Shown here: one piece after another, positions 23,442 to 62,724 of the stretch
How the letters are laid out: each line of letters begins with the position of its first letter
Numbering within the stretch: position 1 is the stretch's first letter
Source of the DNA: an uncultured virus (IMG/VR IMGVR_UViG_3300018494_004239)
Lineage: Duplodnaviria; Heunggongvirae; Uroviricota; Caudoviricetes
DNA: 64,000 nt
Reading direction: 5' to 3' (one strand)
IMG/VR virus record: IMGVR_UViG_3300018494_004239
Made by a program: the position numbers and the translations under genes
The notes under the pieces: generated by a model
Databases searched by the model: none
What the model saw: the letters and a program-made list of their open reading frames with translations, nothing else
What the model was told of the DNA's origin: nothing

Positions 23442-23442
23442 G

Positions 23443-25130: not shown

Positions 25131-25248
25131 AGTGCTTTCCTCCTGTTTTTTTCTTTATTATAACATATTGAGAGACCGTTGTCAACATTTTAGATTGACA
25201 AAGTGTTTGTTTTTTGATATAATTGTTTTAAAAGAGGAGGTATAAAAT

Positions 25249-26432: not shown

Positions 26433-26520
26433 AAACACCCTCCTATTGAGTTATTTCTTAATTATATATGAAAGAAATGAAAAAAGCAAATAGAAAAACC
26501 CGCCGAAGCGGGTTTTCTAA

Positions 26521-26685: not shown

Positions 26686-26830
26686 AACATATCCTCCTTC
26701 GAATATATAAATTTTCTAACAGATTCATTATAATATATACGAAAATTTTTATCAAAAAATATTTGCATAGTTGACATTGCCGAGTTTTTGTGATATAATT
26801 ATATTATAAAATATATGGAGGTTAGAAGAA

Positions 26831-27148: not shown

Positions 27149-27211
27149 TCTACTATGATGCGGTTCTAAAAAAGAATCGCATCTTTTTTTTATTTTTTTA
27201 TCGAAAAGGTC

Positions 27212-27268
27212 TTGACAAATCGAAAATCTTGTGCTATAATCTACTTAACATCAAAGTGATATTAAGTA
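27212..27268 (+). promoter_or_regulatory. Promoter of the NAMPT-like/nadE operon with a candidate NrtR operator
   Basis: TTGACA 27212-17, TATAAT 27235-40, TACTTAACATCA-AAG-TGATATTAAGTA at 27242-68; near-identical to 21826-21886. Confidence 0.82.
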
Positions 27269-27306
27269 AAAAATATCACAAAACCAAAATAAAAGGAGAT
27301 ATTGTT

Positions 27307-29103: not shown

Positions 29104-29162
29104 CAAAAATGCTCCCAGTTAATCTGGGAGCACCTACATAAAATAAGGAAAGAGGTAACTAT

Positions 29163-37431: not shown

Positions 37432-38184
37432 ATGCATAAATTTACATTAAGTGCGGAACAAGAATCGAGAAAAAATCAACTTATAAAACACGATACAAGA
37501 AAACAAGATGTCGAATATGCTTTCATCAGTAAGATTACTGGTATGGTTTACATAGGTTGGTCAAATAAGCAATTCGAGACGAGATTAAAGCAACATATCA
37601 AAAATGCACGCAATGGAATTGGTCAAAACAGCAAGTTCTATAATGAGATAAGAAAAAACGGGATTGAAAGTTTTGATTTTGTTATTTTGGAATTTGTTCC
37701 AAAAGGACAAGGACCAGCAAGAGAAAAAGAACTTATTCAATATCATGATACTTTTCGTAACGGATATAATTCAACGAGTGGTGGCGAAGGCGGCGAGAAA
37801 GTGGATGGTAAATTGTTTGCTCAATTATACGAAGAGGGTTATGAAGTAAAGGAAATTGCTGCAATGTATAATTACGATAAAGATACAGTACGATTAAAGT
37901 TGCAAGAATATGGATATGATACACGAGCAAATTGCACATCAAATCGTGGGCGCGAGATTCTAATGTGTGATATTGAAACTGGCGAAGTTCTGGAGCGTTT
38001 TTGCACTATAAGCGATGCTGGTAGGGAGATGAGGAGACGAGGACTTTCAAATACAAAAGAACTTAAAGGGACTGTTAGTAAGATTAGCGATTCTGCAAGA
38101 GTAGAAAGTCATAATGCATGTGGATATAAATGGAGGTATGCTGACAATAGCAAACCGATTCATCCAAATTGGGGTCGTACATAA
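37432..38184 (+). CDS. Free-standing GIY-YIG homing endonuclease with C-terminal HTH/NUMOD1-like domains
   Basis: YAFISKITGMVYIGWS, RLKQH, E..LI....GYN; ERF.TISDAGR and GYKWRY; own promoter 37351-37379. Confidence 0.85.
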   Translation: MHKFTLSAEQESRKNQLIKHDTRKQDVEYAFISKITGMVYIGWSNKQFETRLKQHIKNARNGIGQNSKFYNEIRKNGIESFDFVILEFVPKGQGPAREKELIQYHDTFRNGYNSTSGGEGGEKVDGKLFAQLYEEGYEVKEIAAMYNYDKDTVRLKLQEYGYDTRANCTSNRGREILMCDIETGEVLERFCTISDAGREMRRRGLSNTKELKGTVSKISDSARVESHNACGYKWRYADNSKPIHPNWGRT

Positions 38185-44427: not shown

Positions 44428-44560
44428 ATCAATTCCTCCTTTTTCTTTAATATAATTATACCATAAAACACTGCGAATGTCAACCAGAAAATACAAAAAA
44501 CATACAAAAGAACCACTTTCAAAGAAAGTGGTTCTGTAATAAGACATAGTATTAACACAT

Positions 44561-45508
44561 TTAATTATCGAATGCAAATACAATACGAATGTCGTTAGGG
44601 TCGTCGATGCCGTACTTCTTTGCGATTTCTTTCATTTCTTCGATACCACAGTAAAGTGCAGTTTCTTTCTTTGCCTCTTCGTCCTTTTCCCAGACTACCA
44701 AAATAACTGGGCAAAGTGCAGACTGAAAAACATCCTGCAAAGTTTCAGGAGTGAATTCCTGAACGGTCATACCTTCGGGAAGAGTTCCGCCCATTCTCTT
44801 GAATGCTTCATAAAAAGCAACATCCATCTTGTATTTGTCAGAATAATAGTCCTTCAAATCAGCAGTGATGAGTTCGTGGAGAGAAAGGAAACTTGGGGTG
44901 TGGTAATCGCCGTGAGGACCGCAGTATTCGAAGTTTACTCTCCAGCGACCATAATCTTGCATTTCTTCATCCCAGTCGTCTTCGTAGTAATCTTTTAGAA
45001 ATGCTTCAATATTGGGGTAATACTTATAGTGAGGAATCCGTTCAAAGCGACCACCATTTGCATAAGCATCTCGAACATAATAATCGGGTGTCTGATTTCC
45101 GCTTTGAGTATAACCGAGAGAATTATACTGCTTATCAAATGTATCAACTTCTGTTCTTTGTTTTACATTGAGTGTCTCATATTCCTCTTTTGTGAGATGA
45201 GTTTTCTCAACAGCAGAAGGTTCGTGGTAATTACCGTCTTTGTCAACAAAGAGGATTTGACCATCATTGTCGTCATAAAATCTTTCTTTTGCTCTGTTTG
45301 TGTAAGTTTCGAAGTCAAATTTCATTGCACTGATGTCTTCGGGGAGACCCTTCGCTTCAAAGCCCTTGATGTTGAAAGAGTTTCTTACACCTGCAAGAAC
45401 TGAAAAAAGACCATAATTTCTGCTGTCAAATGATTCTGGGATTTCTTTTACCCATTGCCATTTGCCATTTTTTCTGATTTCTGTGATAATATGAATATCG
45501 CAACCCAT
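44561..45508 (-). CDS. MGCDIH-family hypothetical protein, paralog A
   Basis: MGCDIH, R.Y.LF..L..VRN, KGLP.D, H..S.L.L.EL and RIVFAFD motifs. Confidence 0.85.
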   Translation of the reverse strand: MGCDIHIITEIRKNGKWQWVKEIPESFDSRNYGLFSVLAGVRNSFNIKGFEAKGLPEDISAMKFDFETYTNRAKERFYDDNDGQILFVDKDGNYHEPSAVEKTHLTKEEYETLNVKQRTEVDTFDKQYNSLGYTQSGNQTPDYYVRDAYANGGRFERIPHYKYYPNIEAFLKDYYEDDWDEEMQDYGRWRVNFEYCGPHGDYHTPSFLSLHELITADLKDYYSDKYKMDVAFYEAFKRMGGTLPEGMTVQEFTPETLQDVFQSALCPVILVVWEKDEEAKKETALYCGIEEMKEIAKKYGIDDPNDIRIVFAFDN

Positions 45509-49007: not shown

Positions 49008-49571
49008 TTAGTCCTCCTCATAAGTTACATCAAAATTGATTACAGGATTCTCGATAGTCATAGGAATATCGGTATACAGATAAGTGCCAGTCCATTCAAT
49101 GTAATTGCCCATAGTGTCAAAGAAGAAAATACCACTGTCATTTTCTCCATAAGAACCATCGACATCGGTGAGCCATTCGTTCTTATAGGTACTGCCAGAA
49201 GAAATTTCGAAATATTCACTATCGGGTGTCAAATAACTGTTGAGACTACTTACCTTACCATCTACAACAAACTTGCCGACAACTGCACCACTTTCAGTGA
49301 AAAGCACAATATAACCCAAAGGCTTTTCTACTGCACAAGGAACAGCATCTGCCTTATCTCTCTGACCGTTTACCCAGTAAGCACGACGAATGAGGTTGTA
49401 GCGCTCAAGGGAATAGTCAATGTCGGTAGGGGTAGGTTGATTGGTCTGCAATTTGTTTGCGATTTCCTTGGTATTTGTCTTGTCTACAGTGCTACCGCTG
49501 GGAGCGTCACAAGCAGTAAACAGGAACATAATACATACAACAACCAAGATACAAGATACAACTTTCTTCAT
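49008..49571 (-). CDS. Hypothetical lipoprotein
   Basis: FTAC lipobox; SLERYNL, GKVSSLNSYLTP and DGSYGEND.GIFFF motifs. Confidence 0.8.
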   Translation of the reverse strand: MKKVVSCILVVVCIMFLFTACDAPSGSTVDKTNTKEIANKLQTNQPTPTDIDYSLERYNLIRRAYWVNGQRDKADAVPCAVEKPLGYIVLFTESGAVVGKFVVDGKVSSLNSYLTPDSEYFEISSGSTYKNEWLTDVDGSYGENDSGIFFFDTMGNYIEWTGTYLYTDIPMTIENPVINFDVTYEED

Positions 49572-49734: not shown

Positions 49735-49767
49735 AAGAAACCCCGCATCGTTATGCGGGGTTTCTTA
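49735..49767. terminator. Terminator hairpin just outside the transposon
   Basis: AAGAAACCCCGCAT-CGTT-ATGCGGGGTTTCTT. Confidence 0.75.
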
Positions 49768-49804
49768 ATTTTAGTTTCAAATTAAATTGTCATTTAACAA
49801 TTAC

Positions 49805-49940
49805 TGTTGATTATAAACTTATTTTGAAACAGAACTATGCTTTTTCATAGTTTTCTTCGTGATTTATTAGAAACTTATTATAAAACAAAGCAATATAATG
49901 TCTTTGATAGTTACAATGTTGTGAAACTTGTTTTGAAACA
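49805..49940 (+). repeat. Transposon left end with three spaced TnsB-binding-like repeats
   Basis: TAAACTTATTTTGAAACA 49814-31, GAAACTTATTATAAAACA 49870-87, GAAACTTGTTTTGAAACA 49923-40. Confidence 0.85.
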
Positions 49941-50002
49941 AAACTTAATAGTGTTATAAATTGTTTTTTATTTTTATAAGTTTCCGTTTATATAAAAATA
50001 TT

Positions 50003-50935
50003 TTATTGTAAGCCAACCGAGAAATATGTCGATATTGGTGTTGACAAACTCATAACAATGGAAGCAGGATGATTTTCTTGTGCTTTTGAATAACCAAAAA
50101 TAATATCTCCAAATTCCATCTCTGCTTTGAATAAGTCAATCAATTCTTTGTGATTAAAAAGTGTAACATTTGTGTTATACTTTTTATTTATATATTGAAT
50201 TGCAGTATTTAAATTATCTTGATTAGTCTCAAATGCAATTGCATCGCACATCCCGTTTTTCATAAAATGAATAACTGGAGTTAAGAAGATTTTATCTACT
50301 TCAATAGGTTTCATTTTATATCCAAACTCATTGCCCTCAATAATGTTGGACTTATATCTTTTGATAAAATCTGCCTTATTCATACCAAGATAAATATGTG
50401 CATCACTAATTTTAAATAGAGTTTTGTTCCTGATTTCTTTTAGAAAATCCTTTGGTGAAAATTCATATTCTTCTGCAAAATCGTTGACTGCTTCTTCTAA
50501 AAACATCTTTTCTAATACAGGAATAACAAAATTATCTTTTTCTGATTGTGGTGCACAGCAGTTATAATAGCAGTGTTCAAAAAATAAACACACATGTCTA
50601 CAATAGCATTGCTGAATTCTGCTTTTTAAATACTTAAAAGTATCAATCGGTTCAACTTCTTTTAATTCGATAGAATAATCTGTTGTGTCGTTTTCTCTTT
50701 TATACTCATATACAGAGCCAGCGAAACGAAAATAAGAATATCGTTTTATATTGTTTTTCTCAATAACATTAGAATCTGTCCACAAGTGTTGTTCTATTGC
50801 TAAATATAAGTCTGGGTCAAAAGAACAAGAGTCGTCTACTACGATATCTCTCAATAGGCAACGATGTCCATTTCTGACACACTTTGCTACACCACTAATT
50901 TCTTCGCCTATAAGTTGTTTTAAATTTTCTCTCAT
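50003..50935 (-). CDS. Hypothetical cargo protein with a Cys cluster
   Basis: AGGAG RBS; CYCRHVCLFFEHCYYNCC. Confidence 0.7.
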   Translation of the reverse strand: MRENLKQLIGEEISGVAKCVRNGHRCLLRDIVVDDSCSFDPDLYLAIEQHLWTDSNVIEKNNIKRYSYFRFAGSVYEYKRENDTTDYSIELKEVEPIDTFKYLKSRIQQCYCRHVCLFFEHCYYNCCAPQSEKDNFVIPVLEKMFLEEAVNDFAEEYEFSPKDFLKEIRNKTLFKISDAHIYLGMNKADFIKRYKSNIIEGNEFGYKMKPIEVDKIFLTPVIHFMKNGMCDAIAFETNQDNLNTAIQYINKKYNTNVTLFNHKELIDLFKAEMEFGDIIFGYSKAQENHPASIVMSLSTPISTYFSVGLQ

Positions 50936-50996
50936 AACTAATTCTCCTAAAAAATAGCATACGATTGCACACACAACCAATCGTATGCCATTAATT

Positions 50997-51434
50997 TTAT
51001 TCTTTGTTTGTTACAAACGGGTCTTTTGATTTTTTAAGAAAATTCTCGATTGCCTTTTCTCTTAAACCAAAATTTTCTGCCATCAAGGTGGCAATAACTG
51101 AAAGTTGTTGTTTCAATGGAAATGCTTTAAATATTTTATAATATTCTAATTCGATACAACAGGGAACTTTCATTCGGAGTTCTTCAAAAATTGCATCTAA
51201 AAGACTACCTTTTCCATTGATAGCAAAAGGAGAATCACCAATGTGTCTTTGTTCTGAATTGGCGACAAGCAATTTGTAAATACTTTCGCTTGTGTGTTCT
51301 TCCTTTGGACGATATGTGGTAATATACGATGACAATGCATTTAACAGCATTGTCGCGCAATGATAATTTTGTTTATTATCATATGCAAAAGGATTTCTAA
51401 ACATAATTCCGCAATAATCATATTCAAATAACAT
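50997..51434 (-). CDS. Hypothetical cargo protein
   Basis: GAGG RBS; promoter at 51557-51585 on the minus strand. Confidence 0.7.
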   Translation of the reverse strand: MLFEYDYCGIMFRNPFAYDNKQNYHCATMLLNALSSYITTYRPKEEHTSESIYKLLVANSEQRHIGDSPFAINGKGSLLDAIFEELRMKVPCCIELEYYKIFKAFPLKQQLSVIATLMAENFGLREKAIENFLKKSKDPFVTNKE

Positions 51435-51668
51435 ATTTTTTAACCTCGTTTCTTATTTTTTGAAGAGATTCGTGTGTGTGGAAATCCAGTTATAACCTCT
51501 ACTTCAGGTTAATCTTCAAAAGAATAAGTAGTTAAAACTTGCGGAATTCTAATTTTATTATAACATAAATATGCCATTCTGTCAATAGAATTGAATTAAA
51601 GCAATTAAAAAAGGCACCCCTGTTTTTTTATCAAAATAACGAGTTTCTTTTTATCGCCAAACTCTTAA

Positions 51669-53795
51669 TTAAATGGTATTGTTTTTGTATCTTGGATGTT
51701 TTTTAAAAAAATCTGAATAATATTCCAATAATATTTTTTCATACTTTGGTTTTAAACTACCTCTGTTTTTCGCTTTTCGTTGCCTTAAAAACCACTGACC
51801 CACTTTATTTCCATTGTGTATTTCTTTGACTGAAGGAAAATAATTTCCTGTTTCATTAACAAATACTTTATATTCATTAAACCTTTGTTCCCACTTATAA
51901 AATGCAGTATCGAATACAAAATCTATATCTTTAAGTGCTTGTATCTTTTCTTGTGAAAGTTGTCCTTTTCTGTAATATTGTCTGGTTACAATCAACCAAC
52001 TATATAGATTATATCCTTTGTATGTTTCATTCATCACTGGACACAGATGTCCAAACTCGTTTTTGTATTCAATACAAAGTTGATACCAAAAATCCCAAGT
52101 TGACAAAGGACTTTGAATGGATTTGCGATTTTTTACAGGTAATAAGGAAGATGGTGTTGGTCTTTTAATCTCTTGCAATATATGTCTATTTGTCAACTCA
52201 ATGGTTTCGTCTGTTTCCTTGTCATATATAATACATTTTTCTTTTCTTTTTCCTACAATTTCATATCTATCATCAGAATATTCTTTTAACATTATTTTCA
52301 ATTCCCTTAACGACACTTGATTGTAGCATTTGGGACATCTGGCACCAATAAGAAAATTGTATGGCACATATTCGTGTGCGCATCCACAAATGTTGTGCCT
52401 AATGGTGACTTTATCTTTACGAATAGAACCAATATCACAAACCGTATATTCATCCCCAACAACATCCCTTATTTCTTGTTCAAGATTTTCTTTTGTAAAT
52501 CCTTGACAATGAGGACATTTAGGCCATTTTAAAAACCATCTGAATGATTTATATTCAAACTCTCTACCACAATCATTGTGACGGAACTTTGCAGGAAATG
52601 TAGCACCGTTAAATTCAACCAACTTGAATTGTGGGTGTTTTTTCATCTCTTTTTCTGCTTCTTTTCTTTGCATTTTTATACCACACTTGCATCTTTTGTG
52701 ATTAAAAACGAAGTTATTTAAACTGGTAAGGTGTTCTTCGCCACAAGGTTTATGGAATAGACGTATGCTGTTTTTAGTTTTAGTTGGTAGGAAACCTTTG
52801 AAAACATATTCTCCGTTTCCACCAATTTTAATCAATCTCTTTATCAAATCTATTTCTTTAAGTTTATCATCACAAAATGTACAACCCCATCCATCTTTAA
52901 GTGCTTGTTCTGTTGTGTAAAAAGTCTTACCGCACTTATCACATTTTTGTTCAATGATTAGAGAAAATTTCTTCGCTTTTACTAATATGTCTTTTGGATT
53001 TGGGTATGCATACATCAATACTTTAATAAAATCTTTTATTGGAAAGTTACAATCGTTTTTAGACCACAAACTTTCTTTGGAATAAGTTTTGCCATTTTTG
53101 AGTATTTCGTTTATTTTTATGACCAATTCCTTTTTATTTGATTCTAATATCCCTAATTTATCGATTATGATTTTCATTAAATCATTAGAATTAGATTGAA
53201 AATTGTTTTCTAACAGAAAATGGGTATAATCAGCATATTCGCACTCTTTTTCAAAAGTGTCTGCTAACTCCATTTGTTCCAAAGTTTCATCTTTGTAAAT
53301 GTATTTCGAATTCCTTTTTTGAATAAATAATGGGGTGTGATGTTTATGACAAACACAAACACCATTTAACTGATGAGAACGATGAATGTAAGTTTCTCCG
53401 AATAATTCCTTATCTTCCTTCATACATTCTTTACACATACGGAAATCTGTCATTAAATATTCTTTTATGGTATATATGTTATTTTCTTTTCTGAAAATAG
53501 GATTTATGAACTTTGTCTGCATCTTGGGTGGATAAGACAATAATTCAAATTGTAGAGTAGATAAACTTAAATATAATTCTGAAACAGGGGTTGTACAATT
53601 AAGAAAATTATAGAATGAACCAAAACCTTTTCTAATATCTATGGGAAGTAAAAACTTGCTAAAGTATTCTTTACCGAAATAGGTTTCAAAAAACAGAGGA
53701 ACGGAAAGTTTATTGGCGTTTGCTAATCTCATTACCCAAGAATATAAGAATTCGTCTGGGTAAGGGGCAACAATCATAGGAATGAATTTATTCAT
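51669..53795 (-). CDS. tniQ: TniQ/TnsD-like target selector with zinc-finger repeats and helicase-associated (HA) domains
   Basis: PYPDEFLYSWVMRLA..N and CKEC...D....GETYIHRSHQL.GVCVCHKH (TniQ); four C/HxxCG..CxxC units; two W...Y/F.....F/YK...GH/N...W...QR/TR HA-like repeats. Confidence 0.88.
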   Translation of the reverse strand: MNKFIPMIVAPYPDEFLYSWVMRLANANKLSVPLFFETYFGKEYFSKFLLPIDIRKGFGSFYNFLNCTTPVSELYLSLSTLQFELLSYPPKMQTKFINPIFRKENNIYTIKEYLMTDFRMCKECMKEDKELFGETYIHRSHQLNGVCVCHKHHTPLFIQKRNSKYIYKDETLEQMELADTFEKECEYADYTHFLLENNFQSNSNDLMKIIIDKLGILESNKKELVIKINEILKNGKTYSKESLWSKNDCNFPIKDFIKVLMYAYPNPKDILVKAKKFSLIIEQKCDKCGKTFYTTEQALKDGWGCTFCDDKLKEIDLIKRLIKIGGNGEYVFKGFLPTKTKNSIRLFHKPCGEEHLTSLNNFVFNHKRCKCGIKMQRKEAEKEMKKHPQFKLVEFNGATFPAKFRHNDCGREFEYKSFRWFLKWPKCPHCQGFTKENLEQEIRDVVGDEYTVCDIGSIRKDKVTIRHNICGCAHEYVPYNFLIGARCPKCYNQVSLRELKIMLKEYSDDRYEIVGKRKEKCIIYDKETDETIELTNRHILQEIKRPTPSSLLPVKNRKSIQSPLSTWDFWYQLCIEYKNEFGHLCPVMNETYKGYNLYSWLIVTRQYYRKGQLSQEKIQALKDIDFVFDTAFYKWEQRFNEYKVFVNETGNYFPSVKEIHNGNKVGQWFLRQRKAKNRGSLKPKYEKILLEYYSDFFKKHPRYKNNTI

Positions 53796-53810
53796 ACTTT
53801 ATTCCTCCTA

Positions 53811-55418
53811 TTATCCAATAAAATCTCTCATAGTCGTTGTATCCATTTCTGGGATACTCGACTTTTTCTTTTTATCTGCAGATTTGGTATTTCTTCTGTG
53901 AGTAAGTTTATCAAGAACCAAACGACTCATTTCTCTTTCGGATTTAGGATTGTCTTTGGTCTGTTTTATAACTAAATTAAATGCCTTTTCAATTTGAGAA
54001 AGAGAATATTCATCATATAGGGCAGTGATATTTGCTACAATATTTTTCAACATTAGCATTTTATCGACTGCTTTATTTTGTTTTTGTAACAAGTCTTCTG
54101 CTTCTTTTTCCTGCTTTGCATTATCAATGATAGAAGCGACTCTAACTTCTGCATCTTGTCTGATGCCCATAAGTTTTCTTGCCGCTTCAATTGATTCCAA
54201 ATCCGCAAGAACATTCTGAATTCCTGGGTAATATCTTTGTGCTATATCATAGACATATTTCGCATCGATTACGGGGCGTTTCTTTCGCTCTAAATAGTCG
54301 TAATGCATACAGGAGTATATTCCTATAAGTTGGTCCACAATGCCTTTGGTGACATCGTAGAGGGCATCTACAAGTTCCTCTGTTACATCAATTGGTTCAT
54401 CAAACCATTGATAGTTAAATAGTTGAGTGACAAGGAATGTAAAAAACATTTTGTTCTCACAATACATATTACCGTTGATTACTGTTCCAATTCTTCTTGT
54501 GGTTCTTAATTCCTTAAACATTTTGTCTCTGGCATCTTCTGTACCTACAACAGCGATAGCGACTTTTGTTCTGTTAGATAAAGTCATTAAAGATTCAAAA
54601 GAACTTTCTTTTGTTCTATCAAAATCTATGAGTTGTATCTCATCAAAGATAATCATTCCGATACCAAATCTTTCTATTAACTCACGAACCTTCTCCATTT
54701 TTCTGCCAAGTGTGGTTGTTTTTGCAATCTCTTTTGCATAAACAGGTTGAGTATTGCCGAGCGCCTTATCAACAGCATCGCCAATGCCTTCATATAATGC
54801 AGAGAAATTACTATTGGGTACACAGTTTACAACCAAATAAACAATCTGGACATATTGTGTAAACTCATCTACACGATGTATAATGGTTTGTGGATAATGC
54901 GAAAGCAATGTTTGGATTGCGGAACTTTTGCCACAACCAGAATAACCTATGAGAGAGAATCCTGCATTTGTAGAATCGGCAGAATTACCATATAAAACAC
55001 AGTTGGTTTCTGTCTCTATATCGTTTGAAATATATTCAATTGGTTTATCGTTTATGGGTTTGATTTTCCTTGACCTATAAGATGTAATTAAAGCATTATA
55101 GAATGAAAATTCCAAATTCTTGTGGAATGTAAGAGGAAATCTTATCTGCCTTAAAGTGCTAACTTGCAACATCTTTTCTAATTTGGTCATATTTTTGACC
55201 TTATCGTAGTCGTATGTTAAAAGATGTTTTGTGTATGCATCTCTTACATCATCTTCGTGTCTCGGATGTGGCAATGCCTCTATGTATGGGTTACCGATAT
55301 CACATTCAACAAGTGCCTTAACATATCTGGCATTTACGATTTTGTTTTCTTCAAAATCATAATCTTCATATTGTGTCTCGAATTTTTCACATTCGTAATA
55401 ATTATATTTTATATCCAT
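53811..55418 (-). CDS. tnsC: TnsC-like AAA+ ATPase
   Basis: GNPYIEALP, Walker A GYSGCGKS, YLVVNC, Walker B IIFDEIQ, VGT, RR, T.GI. Confidence 0.92.
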   Translation of the reverse strand: MDIKYNYYECEKFETQYEDYDFEENKIVNARYVKALVECDIGNPYIEALPHPRHEDDVRDAYTKHLLTYDYDKVKNMTKLEKMLQVSTLRQIRFPLTFHKNLEFSFYNALITSYRSRKIKPINDKPIEYISNDIETETNCVLYGNSADSTNAGFSLIGYSGCGKSSAIQTLLSHYPQTIIHRVDEFTQYVQIVYLVVNCVPNSNFSALYEGIGDAVDKALGNTQPVYAKEIAKTTTLGRKMEKVRELIERFGIGMIIFDEIQLIDFDRTKESSFESLMTLSNRTKVAIAVVGTEDARDKMFKELRTTRRIGTVINGNMYCENKMFFTFLVTQLFNYQWFDEPIDVTEELVDALYDVTKGIVDQLIGIYSCMHYDYLERKKRPVIDAKYVYDIAQRYYPGIQNVLADLESIEAARKLMGIRQDAEVRVASIIDNAKQEKEAEDLLQKQNKAVDKMLMLKNIVANITALYDEYSLSQIEKAFNLVIKQTKDNPKSEREMSRLVLDKLTHRRNTKSADKKKKSSIPEMDTTTMRDFIG

Positions 55419-55431
55419 ATCGAATACCTCC

Positions 55432-57582
55432 TTACCAATCTTCCAATGCTTCGTCCCAATTGCTATATGTGTTTAACTTATTTTTCTTTACTGGGACTTC
55501 CTCTGCAGGAGGACATTCGGTTATTTTTTCAATAAACTCTTCTACCAAAACATCTTCCGTTTTTGGTGCTTCGAGTTTAGGTTGTTCTAATCTTTTGCTG
55601 ATTTTATTAGATTTAGATTTTGCCTGCTTTTCAATCTCACGAGCAGGTCTCATATCTTTTGCAGAAGGTAACATTGGTTTTGTCGCTTCTTCAACAATAG
55701 CATTGTTCATCGCATAATTGAATGCAGACAATTCTTCGTTATTAACCTTGCCTGCTGCGAGAAGTTCTTTTTTACCCTTGCGGAAATCTTCGTATTCCTT
55801 CATCGTCATACCAGCATATTCCGCATTCCCTTGAATTAGCGGGTTAAGTCTGGCGACCATTAACTTATTATCTCTGATATAATAAATCGAACCAACATCT
55901 CTCATATCCATTCTTGCTTCAAAATCTTTTCTTTTGTTGCCAGCATCAAACATCTCACGAGCAAGTTTTTTATCTTCTGTGTTTAGATAATATAATTCCT
56001 TATGACTGATACCTTTTCTGCTTACTTTGGCATTGATAGGTGTCATAAGATTGAATAGATATTGTTGCAGCGAAGGGATTGGTCTCGGTGTGAAACCGTT
56101 GTTTATGCCATATTTCCACAACAAAGCAGGAATGGGTTGAACCTTCTTCAAAATCATATCTTTTGTGAGTGGGAAATTTGTTAAGCATTGTTGGTTGTGA
56201 GTTAGAACAAAACCAATAACCATTTTAGTATATTCTTCAATATTCAACATCGCCTCTTGATGATGTTTGGAATCGTGTCTTTGGGTAATGAGACCATGAT
56301 TTTCAAGATGATGATTTTGTTTGAGATGTAATTGTCTAAATGACTGCTCTACAATACCTTTGAGAGAACCACACCCTGGCAATACGATATTTCTTTCAAT
56401 ACCAAGTTCATTGCAGATTCTCTCAAACTCTTTGCTTCTAAATTCAGCACCTTTGTCAACACGAACACGATTGGGAATAATGTTTGATGGCCAAATATCT
56501 TTGTTTTCATAACTAATTCCGTATCTCTCACAATACTTCTGTTTATCATCTGCAAGGTTTAGAAATAAGTTTGATAAACCAAGCATAGAGTTATTATCAA
56601 AAGCAACAGACACTGCCAAGATAATGCGAGAGTATACATCAACCATAAAGTACACTATCGGTCTGCCGATAGTTTTTGATGAGTCAATAACAGAAACCAA
56701 CGATATATCTGCTTCGCAAGCATCGATTTCTACCAAATCACCAGGTCCATTTACACCATTGAGTGAATCGCTTACAAGAAGTCTTTTGTTATTCTTTTGT
56801 TCGAGTGCAGATGTTTTTATTAAGTCTTTTTCTTGGTTTGTAAGATGTTTGTTGCAATAGTATCTAAATTGGTCGAGTGTTGGTCTTTCTGATATGGGCA
56901 ATAAAACAATACTGGGTTGACCGTTAATTATTTCTGTTTTTGTAAAATGCAACAAATTCATTTTGTCAAAAGCATCCTTGATGGATTTGTGTCTTCCAGA
57001 CTTATAATCTTTCAATGCTTCTTCAAAATGCTTGATAATTTCATCGGTGATAATAATTCCCGATGCCATAGAGTATTCTGGTGGGCGACCAGTTTTGGTC
57101 TCATAATTATATGTCTTGCCAGTATTTGCACCAAAATATCTCGAATCAACTAACGAATAATCTTGAAGACCACTTTGAAAATATTGAGTACATATTCTCC
57201 AGAAAGAACATCTTGCCAAGTTATATTTACTCATTATATCCTTGACTGTCCTGCCTCGTTTTTTACCGTTTAGTTCAATATAAGATGGTCCATATTCCTT
57301 GAGGACCTCATTCATTATCTGTTGTCTTATTGTGAATTTTTTCTGAAAACCCTCTGGTAAGTCATCCTTGTTGAAAACGATGGGTGGTTCGACTTTGATT
57401 ATTAATTCACCTGTTGCCACAAGTGCGAACAAGGTTTGTTTATTCATTAACGAGAGTAAAAACTTCGTAGTATTCATCTCGCATAAAGTAATATCATTGT
57501 TTACAACTGCAACAACTCGATATTGTTTGCCACTATGCTCATCTATAATAACATTACCAACGGTTAGCATTATATTATCCAT
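55432..57582 (-). CDS. tnsB: TnsB-like DDE transposase
   Basis: PTL.QFRY, GPGDLVEIDA, IGRP.VY..VDVYSR.I, VDKGAEF and KG.VEQSF motifs. Confidence 0.93.
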   Translation of the reverse strand: MDNIMLTVGNVIIDEHSGKQYRVVAVVNNDITLCEMNTTKFLLSLMNKQTLFALVATGELIIKVEPPIVFNKDDLPEGFQKKFTIRQQIMNEVLKEYGPSYIELNGKKRGRTVKDIMSKYNLARCSFWRICTQYFQSGLQDYSLVDSRYFGANTGKTYNYETKTGRPPEYSMASGIIITDEIIKHFEEALKDYKSGRHKSIKDAFDKMNLLHFTKTEIINGQPSIVLLPISERPTLDQFRYYCNKHLTNQEKDLIKTSALEQKNNKRLLVSDSLNGVNGPGDLVEIDACEADISLVSVIDSSKTIGRPIVYFMVDVYSRIILAVSVAFDNNSMLGLSNLFLNLADDKQKYCERYGISYENKDIWPSNIIPNRVRVDKGAEFRSKEFERICNELGIERNIVLPGCGSLKGIVEQSFRQLHLKQNHHLENHGLITQRHDSKHHQEAMLNIEEYTKMVIGFVLTHNQQCLTNFPLTKDMILKKVQPIPALLWKYGINNGFTPRPIPSLQQYLFNLMTPINAKVSRKGISHKELYYLNTEDKKLAREMFDAGNKRKDFEARMDMRDVGSIYYIRDNKLMVARLNPLIQGNAEYAGMTMKEYEDFRKGKKELLAAGKVNNEELSAFNYAMNNAIVEEATKPMLPSAKDMRPAREIEKQAKSKSNKISKRLEQPKLEAPKTEDVLVEEFIEKITECPPAEEVPVKKNKLNTYSNWDEALEDW

Positions 57583-57687
57583 AATATCTACTCCTATCAT
57601 ATTTTAATATTTTTGTGTTCCGAGCAGGAACGAGATTAGTCAAAATTAACAAAAGTATAAGAATACTGAATTTCTAACAAAAATGAG

Positions 57688-57825
57688 TTGACATTTAGAT
57701 AAGAAAATGCTATAATAAGAAAGCAGCATTAAAAAACACTTTTGTTAGATTGGTAGTCATACAAATGTTAATTTTAGTGTTGTTATACGGAAGTCCGCTA
57801 TTCGCAGTAGCGGGCTTCTTTTTTA
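57688..57825 (+). ncRNA. Candidate small RNA (about 100 nt) divergent from tnsB, with its promoter
   Basis: TTGACA 57688-93, N17, TGC-TATAAT 57711-16; long hairpin 57723-57783; terminator GAAGTCCGCTA-TTCGCAG-TAGCGGGCTTC plus T-run; no ORF. Confidence 0.6.
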
Positions 57826-57906
57826 TATTTGGTTTAGAGTCCGATATTGCGGACTCCATATTTTTGTTTGTATTTAACTTAAAATTCGCAGTAATAAGTT
57901 AAGGTG

Positions 57907-58857
57907 TTAATTGTTTTTATTTGTTTCTTCTTCGACACAATTGAAAAATTCTTCAATTGTTTCAACAGACTGGTGGGGTTTTGCAAGTGTTGTTTTTTCC
58001 ATTTTTTCAATATGTTTTTTAAAATAATCGGTAGTTGTTTCGCCTTTATCTATAAGAATACAGTGTCTACCTTCTTCAATACACACTCTACCTGTTGTTC
58101 CGCTACCTGCAAAGAAATCCAAGACGGTTGACCCAGGATATGATAATGCTTTAACTAATCTCCTGATGACTGCTAAAGGTTTTTGGGTTGGATGTCCAAC
58201 TCTTTCTAACGAATTACCATTTAATCTACCTATTTCCCATACATTTGTTGGATTTTTGCCTTTTTTAACATTTTCAGGATTCAGTCTCTTATCTTTTAAG
58301 GCATTTTTTAAATCTTCTTCTGAATATTTTACTCTAACAGAATCTAAATCAAAGTAATATTTATCGGTTTTTACGAACCAAATAATTTCCTCATGACGGT
58401 TTGCAAAATATCTATGGGCAGACATTCCATTTTTGTAATACCAAACAATTGTGTTGACTAACTTCCATTTAGTATTGTGGCGACAATGATAGATAATTTC
58501 AGTTAAATCGCCGCTTCTTTCATCTCTAAATTGAGTGCCACCAAAAACAACTAAACTGCCTTCGTCTTTCAAAACTCTCCAACATTCATTTAACCATTCA
58601 GCACACCAACTCATATAATTATCATATGTATCCCAATCTGCCAAATCCAAATTATAAGGAGGGTCAATGCAAATTAATTGGATTGATTTATCTGGTAGTT
58701 CTTTTAATGCAGTCAAGCAATCTTGAATCATTAATAGTTGAATGCTTTTTTCGGGCATCTCAAAGTCCTTTGATGTCTTATGCTTGATGTTGTCCTTATT
58801 CATTTTATTTAAAGACATAAGTGCAGAATTGTTGTGAGATTTATTATGTATAGCCAT
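57907..58857 (-). CDS. DNA adenine methyltransferase, M.RsrI-like (beta class)
   Basis: IDPPYN..LADWD, NGMSA.R.FANRHEEI.WF, KDKRLNPE.V.KG.NPTNVW, RLNGNSLERVGHPTQKP and VLDFFAGSG match my recollection of M.RsrI (GAATTC). Confidence 0.85.
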   Translation of the reverse strand: MAIHNKSHNNSALMSLNKMNKDNIKHKTSKDFEMPEKSIQLLMIQDCLTALKELPDKSIQLICIDPPYNLDLADWDTYDNYMSWCAEWLNECWRVLKDEGSLVVFGGTQFRDERSGDLTEIIYHCRHNTKWKLVNTIVWYYKNGMSAHRYFANRHEEIIWFVKTDKYYFDLDSVRVKYSEEDLKNALKDKRLNPENVKKGKNPTNVWEIGRLNGNSLERVGHPTQKPLAVIRRLVKALSYPGSTVLDFFAGSGTTGRVCIEEGRHCILIDKGETTTDYFKKHIEKMEKTTLAKPHQSVETIEEFFNCVEEETNKNN

Positions 58858-58859
58858 AT

Positions 58860-61520
58860 TTATAGTACCTCCAATTTAATATGTTCAATGTGAGATAAAA
58901 AGTCTGTGCCAAATGTTTCTTTAATCTCTTCAGTGTGATTTCCTTCTGATAATTTTGTAAAAGCATCAATATGATTTTCAAACATGAAATCTGTGATTAA
59001 TATTTTGTTTATGAAAATGTTGCTTCTGTCGGTTTTGACGATATCAGCCGTTTCTAATAAAGTAACAAGAAATGGGACACGATGCTTGGCACCTTCTGAC
59101 GTCGGAACCTCAATTCCTTGTGTTTCACAATATTTTTTAACAGATAGACTTTCGATGAAAAATTGATAGCAATCAGATTTTGTGATATTCATTTTTCGAT
59201 TATCAAAATACAAGAAGCACAAAAGTTGTCTGATTGCATCAAAATTAAATATAATGTTAAGATATTGCTTTCTCGCTTCGTCATTATCATTGAGATATGT
59301 TTTAATGTTTTCTACAAAAATAGAAACTCCAACATTCATTTCCCAACTGTAATCCTTTGATTTGAGTTTAAATGACAAATCAGCACAATCAATGATGGGT
59401 TTTAGAATAGTAAATAATTGTTTGCCTAATTCCGTTAATTCTGGCATCTTAACATCTAAACCATTTTTTCTGTCATCAGTTATTAATCCCATTCCCATCA
59501 TACCTTGTAATTTATATTTTGTTTGTCTTTGAAATGTGGCTAAATTACTGTCATCACTAAAGTCGCCTCTCATACGAATGAATTTTTCATTCATATATCC
59601 AGAAGTATCTTTTTCGTACAGAGATTTTAAAATGTACATAATATGACCGATATGTAATCCTTGTGGATAATGATATCCATTTTCTGTTATCTCTCCGATT
59701 TTTGTTAAGAATTGAAACCAACTACCAAACACCGAAGCATATTTGCTGGTTTTATATTTACCATCGGTATTAATATCTTCCATTGTTGGTTTTCGACCAA
59801 TTTTAGTTTTTAAGTCGAAGTATGCATCTATTAAGTCATCTTCGTTAATATTGTGATTTTGTTCATCCTGATAATCGAGAATTTGCTGAACCTCGTCATC
59901 AAATTTGACAACACATTTGGGATTGTATTCATATTCGAATTTTTCAAATGCATTTGACCCTTGCTTTGTTTTTTCTTTGACATTTTTTGCTAAATACTGA
60001 CGAACAAAATTAGCACGTTTGTAATTACCAATAAAGTCGAGAATAACTATTTTATCTTTATTTGAAGATAGGCGAAGACCACGACCAATTTGTTGTAGGA
60101 ATACAGTTTTTGATTCGGTGGGTCTTAAAAATAATAGCGACTGCACATTCGGAATATCAACACCTTCATTAAACATATCTACCGTAAAAGCAACAGCGAA
60201 CTCATTATTTCTAAATTTCTTAATCAACTCTTTATTATTTTCTACTGAAGAAACAATAGCAACAGCAGAAATTCCGTGAGAATTGAAAAAGTCCGCCATT
60301 CTTTGAGCATGTTTAATTGATACGCAAAAACCAATGGTTTTGTTGCCATTGCACAGTTCAATATATTTATTAAGAATCATTTTATTTCTCTCGTTAATGA
60401 TTAAATGATTCTCCAAATCTTTACTATCGTATTTTACACCGTTCCAACGAATATTTGTATAGTCAATATTATCTTTTAGTCCATGATATTCATAACTTAC
60501 CAAAAAACCTTTTTCAATGGCATCATTTAGGGTATACTCACTTACCTTATGATAATCAAACAATTCTAATATATCTTTTTTATCTTTCCTATCAGGTGTT
60601 GCGGTTATACCAAGCAAAAATTCTGGTGTAAAATAATTTATAATTTTTTTATATGTTTTACTTTCACCATGATGAACTTCATCAACAACTATATAATTGA
60701 ATGATTTTGGGTTAAATTGTCGCAAGGTTTCGTCTTTACAAAGGGAGTCCTTGGATGCAAAGAGAATTTTGCAATCGTGCAAATTCTCGGATGTACCACC
60801 ACCCAAAAAACCCGTTTTTACATCTCCCCAAACATCTCTATATGCTTCCTTGGATTGAGATAGAATTTCTAATCTATGAACCACAAACAATATTTTTGCA
60901 TCTGGATTTTTGTTATTGTATTGAAGAGCGTCTAATGCCGATAAATATGTTTTACCTGTACCTGTTGGCATTATAACTAATCCTTTTCCCCAACCTAATG
61001 CACGTTTATTTTTTAATGCAACCAGAACTTCTTCTTGAATTGCATTTGGTTCAATTTTGGTTGGTGGAAGTAGTTCTGGTGCATAAACTTTTAGGGTTAG
61101 TCGTATTTCGCTCGCAACACGGCTTCTCCAAGATGGGTCTAATAGTTGTGCATAGGAATACCTTCTTAAAATCCAACCGTGAAATAAAATTTCATTTTGC
61201 CTAAACAAATTATCGTCAAATTGAGCAGATGGTATAATGCCTTCTTTATGGTAGGTTTCTCCATTGATTTCGAATGCAATTTTATGTCCTTCAGGTGTGA
61301 TAATACCGAAATCTATTCTTCTTGATTTTCCCTCACTATCAATAAAGGGATATTGTGGAATTACCATAGGCATTTTGTCTTCACCTAAAATCGCAAACAA
61401 AAAGTCTCTAACAAATATTTTTTCGCTGTCAGGTATAATCTCTTCTTTATATACTTCCAAGTATTCATCACAAGTAATCGTCTTGAAATTTTTCAGTTTG
61501 TTTATGTTAATTTCTGTCAT
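58860..61520 (-). CDS. Nuclease-SF2 helicase fusion (DUF559/Vsr-like N-terminus, DEVH helicase, endonuclease-associated repeat)
   Basis: QYPF.....RIDF......FEING..YH...RQN.....GW; MPTGTGKT, DEVHH, GITATP.R, VDMFNEGVDIP, LRPT.S...FLQQIGRGLR; IGRKPT...Y...FGSW. Confidence 0.85.
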   Translation of the reverse strand: MTEININKLKNFKTITCDEYLEVYKEEIIPDSEKIFVRDFLFAILGEDKMPMVIPQYPFIDSEGKSRRIDFGIITPEGHKIAFEINGETYHKEGIIPSAQFDDNLFRQNEILFHGWILRRYSYAQLLDPSWRSRVASEIRLTLKVYAPELLPPTKIEPNAIQEEVLVALKNKRALGWGKGLVIMPTGTGKTYLSALDALQYNNKNPDAKILFVVHRLEILSQSKEAYRDVWGDVKTGFLGGGTSENLHDCKILFASKDSLCKDETLRQFNPKSFNYIVVDEVHHGESKTYKKIINYFTPEFLLGITATPDRKDKKDILELFDYHKVSEYTLNDAIEKGFLVSYEYHGLKDNIDYTNIRWNGVKYDSKDLENHLIINERNKMILNKYIELCNGNKTIGFCVSIKHAQRMADFFNSHGISAVAIVSSVENNKELIKKFRNNEFAVAFTVDMFNEGVDIPNVQSLLFLRPTESKTVFLQQIGRGLRLSSNKDKIVILDFIGNYKRANFVRQYLAKNVKEKTKQGSNAFEKFEYEYNPKCVVKFDDEVQQILDYQDEQNHNINEDDLIDAYFDLKTKIGRKPTMEDINTDGKYKTSKYASVFGSWFQFLTKIGEITENGYHYPQGLHIGHIMYILKSLYEKDTSGYMNEKFIRMRGDFSDDSNLATFQRQTKYKLQGMMGMGLITDDRKNGLDVKMPELTELGKQLFTILKPIIDCADLSFKLKSKDYSWEMNVGVSIFVENIKTYLNDNDEARKQYLNIIFNFDAIRQLLCFLYFDNRKMNITKSDCYQFFIESLSVKKYCETQGIEVPTSEGAKHRVPFLVTLLETADIVKTDRSNIFINKILITDFMFENHIDAFTKLSEGNHTEEIKETFGTDFLSHIEHIKLEVL

Positions 61521-61800
61521 AAGTGCCTCCTCTATCGTTTTTATCAATACTTCTAAATGTCTCGATAACTGAAATGGCTGCATTCGTAACAATATAGCGA
61601 CCCATATAGTTACCATCTTGTTCGACATAACCTTCTTTTTTCAGTTCATTCATAATTTTGTTTAGCGTAGAGCGACTAATTCCAAGAGCGTCAGCCACCT
61701 CTTGTTGTGTGATACGGGCACGATTATCCTCACCTTTAATATCATAAAGATAAGAGAGTGTTCGAAAATTGTCATTTATAAAACATTTAATTTGCATCAC
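61507..61800 (-). CDS. Winged HTH transcriptional regulator
   Basis: ITQQEVADALGISRSTLNKIMNELKKEGYV; overlaps the helicase start. Confidence 0.85.
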   Translation of the reverse strand: MMQIKCFINDNFRTLSYLYDIKGEDNRARITQQEVADALGISRSTLNKIMNELKKEGYVEQDGNYMGRYIVTNAAISVIETFRSIDKNDRGGTYDRN

Positions 61801-62050
61801 AGATTCACCACCTTCTTAATTTTTGTATAAATTATTGCACATATTTGTTTTATATTATAGAAAAGCATACTGGAAAATATAAATTTTGACTGATTTATAT
61901 GTTTTTTTGATACAATAAGAATGACAGATTTGCTTTTAAAGTGCGGAGTGCTTTCTCCAACCTTGTGTAAAATTTTCAACAATAATATAGAATATATAAA
62001 CTTTTTCTGAAAAAGTCAAGTATTGAATGTGTTTTTTATAATTAAAAAAT

Positions 62051-62082
62051 AAAATCCCTCTCATTACGAGAGGGATTTTTTG
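62051..62082. terminator. Terminator hairpin inside the transposon right end
   Basis: AAAATCCCTCTC-ATTAC-GAGAGGGATTTT. Confidence 0.7.
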
Positions 62083-62108
62083 TTTTAGATTAAATGATTA
62101 TTTACATT

Positions 62109-62199
62109 TGTTTCGGAATAAGTTTCAAACCTACTTTTAGAGAACTTTCCTATGTTTCAGAATAAGTTTCTATGTTTCGGTTTAAGTTTCTATTTTACA
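62109..62199 (-). repeat. Transposon right end with closely packed TnsB-binding-like repeats
   Basis: TGTTTCGGAATAAGTTTC 62109-26, TGTTTCAGAATAAGTTTC 62153-70, TGTTTCGGTTTAAGTTTC 62173-90, degenerate copy near 62132-49; inverted relative to the left-end repeats. Confidence 0.88.
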
Positions 62200-62200
62200 A

Positions 62201-62647
62201 TTACATCATCTTGTTAACGGTGTCTGCTACGAGTTTGCCATCTGCTTTGCCCTTAACCTTTGGCATAAGGTTCTTCATAAGCAAACCACGAGACTTGTTA
62301 TCAAGAGTTTCGATGCCACACTCTGCCATCGTTTCCTTGATGACAACGACGATTTCATCTTCGGTCATCAAAGTTGGAAGGAATTGTGAATAGATTTCCA
62401 TTTCGAATTTTACCTTCTCAATGAATTCTCCACCTTTGCCTTCTGGCACAGAATCAATGCTGTCCTTGCACTGCTTGACCATCTTTGTGACTACGGCAAT
62501 CTCCTCGTCGTCCGTAAGTGGGTGACGGAGGTCGATTTCTTTCTTCTTAAGTTGGTCGTAAAGCATTGCATAGGCATCTTTCTTCTGCTTGTCGTGCGCC
62601 TTCATAGCGGCATACATATTCTGCTTTGCAGTTTCTTGAATGCTCAT
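62201..62647 (-). CDS. yqeY: GatB/YqeY domain protein
   Basis: AAMKA.DK, LTDDEEI.V..KMVKQ.KDS, E..I...FLP..MTE.EI and KGKADGK motifs. Confidence 0.92.
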   Translation of the reverse strand: MSIQETAKQNMYAAMKAHDKQKKDAYAMLYDQLKKKEIDLRHPLTDDEEIAVVTKMVKQCKDSIDSVPEGKGGEFIEKVKFEMEIYSQFLPTLMTEDEIVVVIKETMAECGIETLDNKSRGLLMKNLMPKVKGKADGKLVADTVNKMM

Positions 62648-62724
62648 TGGTATAACCTCCTTGTTTAGATTTCTCGTTTATTATATCATAAACAATTTGG
62701 TTTGTCAACTGGTTTTTTGCATTT

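What the first reader, a model, noticed from the sequence alone, without database searches (positions are those of the whole stretch)
49800..62647. Intact Tn7-like transposon with an apparent attachment site at the 3' end of yqeY
Seen: TGT..ACA termini, spaced repeats at one end and packed repeats at the other, and a perfect ATTAC duplication. The right copy (62200-04) contains the yqeY stop codon, so the gene is left intact. The packed end faces yqeY and carries a terminator (62051-82). Known: Tn7 inserts downstream of glmS with its right end toward the gene recognised by TnsD. yqeY is not among the att genes I know (glmS, comM, parE, yciA, guaC, rsmJ, ffs, tRNAs). Inference: a protein-guided Tn7 family targets yqeY, here probably on a mobile replicon.
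Basis: partly seen in the sequence, partly recalled or inferred. Interest (0 to 1): 0.8.

Follow-up and report, generated by a model that had tools for sequence, protein, structure and literature searches.

The report
Tn7-like transposon at yqeY, lacking tnsA
A 12.4-kb Tn7-type jumping gene sits exactly at the stop codon of a yqeY gene in an animal-gut DNA molecule; its placement looks like deliberate homing to a site not yet described, but this copy has lost one of its two cutting enzymes and carries a restriction-modification cassette in that place.

Summary
A 12,395-bp element (49805-62199) has TGT...ACA termini, three spaced end repeats on the left, three packed on the right, and a perfect ATTAC duplication that contains the yqeY stop codon. 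yqeY stays whole.

The element encodes intact-looking TnsB, TnsC and a 708-aa TniQ (TniQ domain, zinc-ribbon repeats, two HA domains). "Intact" is only partly right. It has no tnsA, whereas 47 of 47 assessable relatives carry tnsA directly upstream of tnsB. In that position sit a wHTH gene, a PD-(D/E)xK nuclease-SF2 helicase and a type II methyltransferase.

Relatives with resolved ends home to nrdD, not yqeY: 15 of 17 have the right end just past the nrdD stop. That group was already reported in a 2025 preprint. The window's TniQ falls in a separate, well-supported clade of 36 of the 68 tree rows. DNA context was reachable only for the window and one short contig.

Recurrence at yqeY is therefore untested. 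Geometry supports homing: the insertion lies 24-84 nt from the most conserved yqeY coding block, and the one other in-clade left end also has TAA at positions 2-4 of its inferred duplication. Two runs hold both flanks without the element. I found no published yqeY attachment site. Moderate interest.

The parts
49735..49766 (.). Hairpin in the left flank, 34-65 bp beyond the insertion point. It is probably the native terminator of yqeY, now separated from the gene by the element.
   Evidence: 14-bp perfect inverted repeat (I5). Called terminator-like on the + strand. The T-rich tail on the - strand was judged by eye.
49800..49804 (.). Left copy of the 5-bp target duplication, ATTAC
49805..49947 (+). 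Left end: TGT terminus and three spaced TnsB-type repeats (core motifs at 49815, 49871, 49924)
50003..50980 (-). Cargo ORF of unknown function (325 aa; the Atlas record starts at residue 16)
   Evidence: No Pfam, PHROG, PADLOC or NCBIfam hit. The Atlas gives only weak helical-repeat structural neighbours, TM 0.35-0.44.
50997..51434 (-). Cargo ORF of unknown function (145 aa)
   Evidence: No family above cut-off
51669..53795 (-). TniQ target selector, 708 aa: N-terminal TniQ domain, zinc-ribbon repeats (about 280-500), two HA domains (about 556-700)
   Evidence: Pfam TniQ 9e-16 and HA 2.9e-21. The invariant Cys/His columns are present. The middle region matches DNA-binding parts of phage HNH/homing endonucleases.
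53811..55418 (-). TnsC AAA+ regulator, 535 aa
   Evidence: AAA_22 and TniB. Matches Tn7 TnsC 8glu at 6.6e-15, with Walker A and B visible in the alignment.
55432..57600 (-). TnsB DDE transposase, 722 aa
   Evidence: Matches Tn7 TnsB 7pik at 4.7e-40 over residues 24-660. D293, D382 and E418 are invariant among 9 family members.
57907..58857 (-). Cargo: type II N6/N4 DNA methyltransferase, 316 aa
   Evidence: Pfam N6_N4_Mtase 8.8e-62. PADLOC MTase_II 2.3e-106.
58860..61520 (-). Cargo: restriction-type nuclease-helicase. N-terminal PD-(D/E)xK domain (REase_MTES_1575/DUF559 type), SF2 helicase, HNH_repeat/HA-like module. The probable start is residue 37 of the long ORF.
   Evidence: ResIII 7.5e-37 and Helicase_C. 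PADLOC mREase_IV 6.8e-77. Atlas start. MTES_1575 in 35 of 35 aligned N-domain homologues. Model pLDDT 87 with weak matches to PD-(D/E)xK nuclease folds and no TnsA in the listed rows.
61507..61800 (-). Winged-HTH regulator, 97 aa; probably the controller of the restriction-modification cassette
   Evidence: HTH_24 6.7e-11 and many other wHTH families
61797..61982 (-). Doubtful 61-aa ORF (TTG start, low complexity); more likely leader or promoter DNA
   Evidence: No family. Sequence read.
62051..62079 (.). Bidirectional terminator inside the right end. On the - strand it would stop read-through from yqeY.
   Evidence: 12-13 pairs, called on both strands
62109..62199 (-). Right end: three packed TnsB-type repeats (core motifs at 62110-62125, 62154-62169, 62174-62189) and the ACA terminus
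62200..62204 (.). Right copy of the duplication, ATTAC; it contains the yqeY stop codon
62201..62647 (-). yqeY (GatB/YqeY family), 148 aa, complete; the proposed attachment gene
   Evidence: Pfam YqeY 1.1e-30, covering 3-141 of 143 profile positions. Residues 121-140 are the most conserved block.
62680..62708 (-). yqeY's own promoter-like site (TTGACA, 17 nt, TG-TATAAT; 12 of 12)

Best explanation
This is a Tn7-family transposon of the gut-Firmicute group whose selector is a TniQ fused to zinc-ribbon and HA DNA-binding modules.

Inferred mechanism: TniQ bound the conserved 3' coding block of yqeY (the codons for ...MPKVKGKADGKLV). It recruited TnsC, and TnsB joined the ends about 25-60 bp away, right end toward the gene. 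This made a 5-bp duplication that straddles the stop codon. The gene stays whole, and the terminator in the right end replaces the displaced native one.

Shown: the insertion, its anatomy, the intact TnsB/TnsC/TniQ motifs, and alleles of the host DNA that lack the element.

Inferred: that yqeY is the dedicated home site of this TniQ clade.

This copy has no tnsA. A self-contained cassette (wHTH regulator, PD-(D/E)xK nuclease-helicase, methyltransferase, its own terminators) occupies the slot between the right end and tnsB. I think the cassette replaced tnsA. If so, this copy can no longer excise by cut-and-paste on its own. It is either fixed or depends on TnsA supplied in trans.
For: - Ends, repeats and duplication.
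- Core proteins.
- Relatives home with the same geometry. 17 of the 45 loci searched gave ends with a perfect 5-bp duplication. In 15 of those 17 the right end faces the 3' end of nrdD, with the duplication starting 10-12 nt after the stop. Five flank ORFs were confirmed as NRDD by Pfam.
- The window's TniQ belongs to a separate clade (support 99; 36 of 68 rows). It carries a 55-residue segment (501-555) that the nrdD-type selectors lack.
- YqeY residues 121-140 are 81-99% conserved across 121 sequences. They lie 24-84 nt from the insertion point.
- The one other in-clade locus with DNA (L024) has three left-end repeats spaced 54-55 bp. By register with the window's left end, its inferred duplication is T-TAA-C, against G-TAA-T here. 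None of the 10 distinct duplications of the nrdD group has TAA at positions 2-4.
- Runs X7 and X12 carry both flanks, including yqeY at 98-99.7% identity, at depth 15-20 and 3.6-6.4. Depth inside the element is about 0-5 and 0-1.
- tnsA is absent here and present in 47 of 47 relatives.
Against: - Only one insertion event at yqeY was seen. X6 holds the identical allele but may belong to the same sampling campaign.
- No base-level empty site with a single ATTAC was listed among the joints.
- None of the 96 related loci fetched has yqeY.
- Matching contig lengths between TniQ, YqeY and left-flank homologues found no co-occurrence.
- The family does make off-site insertions: L033 lies at another site, L061 sits at nrdD with its left end facing the gene, and L001 is elsewhere.
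- The L024 TAA coincidence has a chance probability of about 0.04 by base composition, and the matching right end was not seen.
- Whether loss of tnsA is a trait of the clade or of this copy alone is unknown.
Confidence: 0.6

Rival explanations
1. Chance or off-target insertion. The element's true home site is elsewhere (for instance the chromosomal site of the 93%-identical TniQ found on an 817-kb contig), and this copy simply landed harmlessly behind yqeY.
For: - Off-site copies exist in the family: L033 has the same ends as nrdD-homing copies but sits at another site, and L001 is not at nrdD.
- Only one yqeY event was seen.
- None of the 96 related loci fetched holds yqeY.
Against: A random hit would rarely fall in a short intergenic gap, at the stop codon of a convergent gene, with the right end toward that gene and 24-84 nt from its most conserved block. 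In the family, 16 of 17 mapped insertions are at the home gene. L024 has TAA in the same register.
Confidence: 0.22
2. The element is still autonomous without TnsA. [quoted passage not shown] Loss of tnsA is then a working variant, not decay.
For: - TnsB, TnsC and TniQ are full length with their catalytic and ATPase motifs.
- The duplication is perfect and both ends are complete.
- The identical element is present in runs X6 and X10.
Against: 47 of 47 relatives keep tnsA. No resolvase was found in the element. In Tn7 proper, TnsB needs the TnsA protein to be active at all (recalled). No second copy or other context was seen.
Confidence: 0.2
3. The feature recognised is not yqeY but something in the left flank, such as the hairpin at 49735-49766 or the promoter region of the next gene.
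For: A strong hairpin lies 34-65 bp from the insertion point, a similar distance on the other side.
Against: In Tn7 (recalled), and in 15 of 17 mapped relatives, the recognised gene is on the right-end side. Here the right end faces yqeY. L024's left flank has no such hairpin.
Confidence: 0.05

Closest known systems
[quoted passage not shown]
   Same: - Same transposase family: TnsB 47-55% and TnsC 51-58% identical.
- Same TniQ build of TniQ domain, zinc-ribbon repeats and HA domains.
- TGT/ACA ends, a 5-bp duplication, and the right end facing the 3' end of a conserved gene, with a hairpin inside the right end.
- L004 is the Fusibacillus element itself.
   Different: - TniQ is only 27-32% identical, lies in a separate clade, and has an extra 55-residue segment.
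- The neighbour is yqeY, and no nrdD is in the window.
- The duplication overlaps the stop codon instead of starting 10-12 nt after it.
- tnsA is missing here and a restriction-modification cassette takes its place.
Tn7 (tnsABCDE; attTn7 downstream of glmS)
   Same: TnsB and TnsC are homologous to the solved Tn7 proteins. The ends are asymmetric, spaced on the left and packed on the right, with a 5-bp duplication. The insertion is oriented, just past a conserved gene that is left intact.
   Different: There is no TnsA and no TnsE. The selector has a different DNA-binding region, with no solved-structure match for the TniQ. The home gene is different.
[quoted passage not shown]
   Same: The gene set is TnsB, TnsC and TniQ without TnsA.
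   Different: No Cas12k or CRISPR array, and no TniR resolvase, was found. TnsB is far closer to Tn7 TnsB (4.7e-40) than to V-K TnsB (3.7e-06). All close relatives have tnsA, so the absence looks secondary.

Membership tests
Tn7-like transposons | TnsB: DDE (rve) transposase homologous to Tn7 TnsB | tested here: met
   7pik 4.7e-40 over residues 24-660. D293, D382 and E418 are invariant in 9 sequences. Pfam rve 3.1e-06, which is below its gathering score.
Tn7-like transposons | TnsC: AAA+ regulator | tested here: met
   AAA_22 6.6e-12 and TniB 2.3e-10. Tn7 TnsC 8glu 6.6e-15, with Walker A and B aligned.
Tn7-like transposons | TniQ/TnsD target selector | tested here: met
   PF06527 9e-16 at residues 6-156. 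The conserved Cys/His columns are present.
Tn7-like transposons | TnsA endonuclease (heteromeric cut-and-paste transposase) | tested here: not met
   No PF08722 hit in any element ORF. tblastn with 7 relatives' TnsA, and an HMM run at maximum sensitivity over all ORFs of at least 30 aa in the window, found nothing (best E 0.66-0.77). 47 of 47 relatives have it.
Tn7-like transposons | TGT...ACA termini with several TnsB-binding repeats, spaced at the left end and packed at the right | tested here: met
Tn7-like transposons | 5-bp target-site duplication | tested here: met
   ATTAC at 49800-49804 and 62200-62204
Tn7-like transposons | Recurrent insertion at one attachment site, fixed in position and orientation | tested here: inconclusive
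   One event at yqeY. The in-clade locus L024 shows only a left end, with TAA at the same position in its inferred duplication.
nrdD-targeting Lachnospiraceae Tn7-like group | Right end about 10-12 nt plus the duplication downstream of the nrdD stop codon | tested here: not met
   No NrdD anywhere in the window. The neighbour is yqeY.
nrdD-targeting Lachnospiraceae Tn7-like group | TniQ groups with the nrdD-type selectors | tested here: not met
   The FastTree tree puts the window in a separate clade of 36 rows (support 99). The nrdD-type and L001-type selectors form another clade of 24 rows.
Tn5053/Tn402 or type V-K-like TnsA-less elements | Resolvase (TniR), or Cas12k with a CRISPR array, accompanying TnsB, TnsC and TniQ | tested here: not met
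   No such family among the element's ORFs in Pfam, NCBIfam or PADLOC
Restriction-modification cargo | Nuclease plus methyltransferase pair | tested here: met
   PADLOC mREase_IV 6.8e-77 and MTase_II 2.3e-106. The N-domain is REase_MTES_1575 in 35 of 35 homologues. Specificity and activity were not tested.

The most novel reading that the evidence does not exclude
yqeY is the home site of a whole uncharted clade of Tn7-like elements (at least 35 TniQ clusters in gut metagenomes). In this lineage tnsA has been functionally swapped for a different PD-(D/E)xK enzyme, the nuclease-helicase that carries the same kind of HA/HNH-repeat DNA-binding module as the TniQ. That enzyme would cut the 5' strands at the donor ends, or otherwise assist transposition.
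Probability: 0.07. Interest if true: 0.75.

Novelty: new member of a known kind. Interest (0 to 1): 0.4.

Why it matters
Protein-guided Tn7 elements are mined for safe-harbour insertion tools, and each new selector-site pair adds a usable specificity. If yqeY is confirmed as a home site, it becomes a new target: a small gene, widespread in Firmicutes, whose 3' coding block is nearly invariant.

The selector here is built from zinc-ribbon and HA modules that also occur in phage homing endonucleases. That shows how such specificities are assembled.

The copy also records a natural case in which a defence cassette took the place of tnsA. This bears on how Tn7-like elements lose cut-and-paste ability and become fixed islands or replicative elements.

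Tried and rejected
- **Own genome:** none is held for this window.
- **Phage and plasmid collections:** the left flank gives no megablast match. No full-length TniQ relative is present, only domain-level matches.
- **Viral contigs:** no TniQ relative and no exact match to the left-flank hairpin.
- **400 further genomes of the family of G001 (401 searched, G001 included):** 3 of 401 had TniQ matches, all distant.
- **yqeY in genomes that carry relatives:** it lies on other stretches, not beside the elements.
- **Co-occurrence by matching contig lengths:** comparing the TniQ, YqeY and left-flank protein hit lists gave no match, so nothing can be inferred either way.
- **Joint across the element:** the read-laying run listed no joint from 49804 to 62205. 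Contigs in X7 and X12 break before the site, and the table was cut, so only the depth profile is usable.
- **X10:** it holds the element at 100% identity with thin flank cover. I draw no conclusion from that.
- **TnsA-like fold in the nuclease-helicase N-domain:** Foldseek gave only weak PD-(D/E)xK matches (best E 0.02) and no TnsA in the listed rows.
- **Earlier findings of the scan:** nothing on this genome or sequence.
- **First tree run:** it did not finish, so I used FastTree.
Full report
**What is there.** The window carries a 12,395-bp insertion at 49805-62199. It starts with TGT, ends with ACA, and is flanked by ATTAC at 49800-49804 and 62200-62204. The left end has three repeats starting at 49807, 49863 and 49916. 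The right end has three starting at 62109, 62153 and 62173. Their core, AAACTT-N5-7-RAAAC, occurs 7 times in the window against 1.28 expected; 0 of 100 shuffles reached 7. Six of the 7 are at the two ends and point inward. yqeY (62201-62647, - strand; Pfam YqeY 1.1e-30) ends inside the right copy of the duplication, so it keeps its own stop codon. It has a 12-of-12 promoter-like site at 62708-62680. A strong hairpin at 49735-49766, now beyond the left end, looks like its original terminator. A hairpin at 62051-62079 inside the right end scores as a terminator on both strands.

**Genes.** All genes read from the right end on the - strand:
- a doubtful 61-aa ORF;
- a 97-aa winged-HTH protein;
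- a nuclease-helicase (ResIII 7.5e-37; PADLOC type IV restriction enzyme 6.8e-77; true start probably residue 37);
- a type II methyltransferase (PADLOC 2.3e-106);
- after two hairpins and a gap of 306 bp, TnsB, TnsC and TniQ;
- two ORFs of unknown function (145 and 325 aa; one search gave nothing usable for the larger one).

TnsB matches solved Tn7 TnsB at 4.7e-40 and keeps D293, D382 and E418. TnsC matches Tn7 TnsC at 6.6e-15, with Walker A and B. The TniQ (708 aa) has the TniQ domain, zinc-ribbon repeats and two HA domains. Its middle part resembles DNA-binding parts of phage HNH/homing endonucleases.

**No tnsA.** No ORF of the element matches the TnsA family. tblastn with seven relatives' TnsA, and a profile built from them and run at full sensitivity over every ORF of at least 30 aa in the window, found nothing. 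By contrast, all 47 related loci in which the start of tnsB and at least 700 bp upstream are present have tnsA directly upstream of tnsB; 4 further loci could not be assessed (Pfam PF08722 on 7 examples). In the window that slot holds the wHTH, nuclease-helicase and methyltransferase cassette. The N-domain of the nuclease-helicase is a PD-(D/E)xK restriction-type fold: REase_MTES_1575 in 35 of 35 aligned homologues, and a model with pLDDT 87. Its structural matches are weak, are to other nucleases of that fold, and include no TnsA in the listed rows. So "intact" is not right for the cut-and-paste machinery.

**Relatives and their home sites.** The TniQ has 158 homologues at E of 0.001 or better, the best at 93% identity from a contig of 817 kb labelled Agathobacter sp.. 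Scans with an alignment of 41 of them returned 16 loci from species genomes, 76 from metagenomes and none from viral contigs. None of the 96 related loci holds a yqeY by tblastn with four YqeY queries. In 45 loci with tnsB upstream of tniQ I searched for TGT/ACA ends with at least 20 of 30 terminal matches and a perfect 5-bp duplication. 17 gave a pair, falling into seven end types.
- In 15 of the 17 the right end faces the 3' end of nrdD, with the duplication starting 10-12 nt after the stop. NRDD was confirmed by Pfam on five flank ORFs and by tblastn on the others. In L055 only the last codons are in the contig, and I read them by eye.
- One copy (L033) sits elsewhere.
- One (L061) is at nrdD with its left end toward the gene.
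- L001, whose TniQ is a different type, is next to neither gene.

This nrdD-homing group, including the Fusibacillus element that is my L004, is already described in a 2025 preprint (10.1101/2025.07.27.667033; passages read).

**Where the window's selector stands.** In a FastTree tree of 68 TniQ rows, the window groups with P0001-P0034 and L024 in a clade of 36 rows (support 99). The nrdD-type and L001-type selectors form another clade of 24 rows. This tree has local support values only and some long branches outside these clades. Against the nrdD type, identity is 39% in the TniQ domain, 29% in the zinc-ribbon and HA parts, and a 55-residue segment (501-555) has no counterpart. A different home site is therefore expected, but the tree does not say which one.

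The indirect evidence is as follows.
1. The geometry matches that of Tn7 at glmS (recalled) and of the relatives at nrdD: right end toward a convergent gene, and the gene left whole.
2. Across 121 YqeY sequences the most conserved block is residues 121-140 (81-99% conservation of the window's residue). It lies 24-84 nt from the insertion point, the distance at which TnsD-type selectors bind (the distance rule is recalled).
3. L024, the only other in-clade DNA, ends 950 bp past tniQ. It shows three left-end-type repeats spaced 54-55 bp, against 53 and 56 here. By register with the window's left end, its terminal ACA is followed by T-TAA-C, where the window has G-TAA-T in gene orientation. None of the 10 distinct duplications of the nrdD group has TAA at positions 2-4. 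By base composition this coincidence has a probability of about 0.04. It is a hint, not a test.
4. Alleles without the element exist. Runs X7 and X12, from other studies, cover both flanks at depth 15-20 and 3.6-6.4, including yqeY pieces with 6 differences in 360 bases and 1 in 301. Depth inside the element is 0-5 and 0-1. No joint at base resolution was listed.

Run X6 holds the filled allele on an 18-kb contig without a single difference, but it may belong to the same campaign as the source.

**Host DNA.** The window is from animal-gut metagenomes, and no genome is held for it. The surroundings are mostly ORFs without families. Others include a PcfJ-like protein, a GIY-YIG homing endonuclease, an orphan C5 methylase, an NAD-salvage cluster and several PHROG families of unknown function. 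This yqeY is a stand-alone gene, only 41-48% identical to named Lachnospiraceae YqeY. A phage, plasmid or island is plausible, but nothing I ran shows it.

**Literature.**
- Full-text searches for Tn7 with yqeY found 3 papers holding both terms; the one work listed is unrelated.
- A search for yqeY with TniQ, TnsD or attTn7 listed no paper containing yqeY among the 10 shown of 147.
- Searches of the main text of PMC10293859 and of the held supplements of PMC8649781 and PMC10293859 (one file was cut when stored) found no YqeY or GatB entry.
- I therefore found no published yqeY attachment site. Supplements of preprints were closed.

**Verdict.** This is a real Tn7-family insertion, very probably placed by its TniQ at the 3' end of yqeY. 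That site is a new home site for a known kind of element, resting here on one event plus indirect support. The copy is not intact: tnsA has given way to a restriction-modification cassette. I put 0.6 on targeted homing to yqeY by a now TnsA-less element, 0.22 on an off-target landing, and smaller odds on the other readings.

Noticed in passing
window 49008-49571 (- strand): The 187-aa protein just left of the insertion has no Pfam or PHROG family. It has more than 6,300 homologues in gut metagenomes; the 120 listed are 64-96% identical. It is a very conserved, very common protein of unknown function.
   Followed up: partly
L026 16825-16860; L032 19626-19660: Beyond the left end of a 14.2-kb nrdD-homing element, the flank starts with a sequence that resembles the right terminus of another end type of the same family. 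This suggests stacked or decayed insertions at the nrdD site.
   Followed up: no
L061 2341-8756: One family member sits at the nrdD site with a perfect 5-bp duplication but in reverse, with its left end toward nrdD. The other 15 nrdD insertions have the right end toward the gene.
   Followed up: no
L002, L005, L051, L060: Several relatives carry two or three tniQ genes in tandem, which would allow more than one home site per element.
   Followed up: no
window 51669-53795, TniQ residues about 280-520: The zinc-ribbon repeat region of the selector matches proteins annotated as HNH or homing endonucleases and group I intron proteins in Staphylococcus, Lactococcus, Lactobacillus and Bacillus phages (113 phage records). 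The selector seems to borrow a homing-endonuclease DNA-binding module.
   Followed up: partly
window 62063-62067: The loop of the right-end terminator hairpin reads ATTAC, the same pentamer as the target duplication. This is probably coincidence.
   Followed up: no
window 13258-13974 and 21891-29927: A group of NAD-related genes: a NADAR-isochorismatase fusion, a phosphoribosyltransferase, a NAMPT-like enzyme and NAD synthase, plus a Nudix-NrtR regulator further left. It resembles the auxiliary NAD salvage sets of large phages.
   Followed up: no
window 37432-38184; 18742-19950; 42049-44583: A GIY-YIG homing endonuclease, an orphan C5 cytosine methylase and an 844-aa PcfJ-like protein lie in the same window. 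These fit a mobile or phage-like replicon.
   Followed up: no
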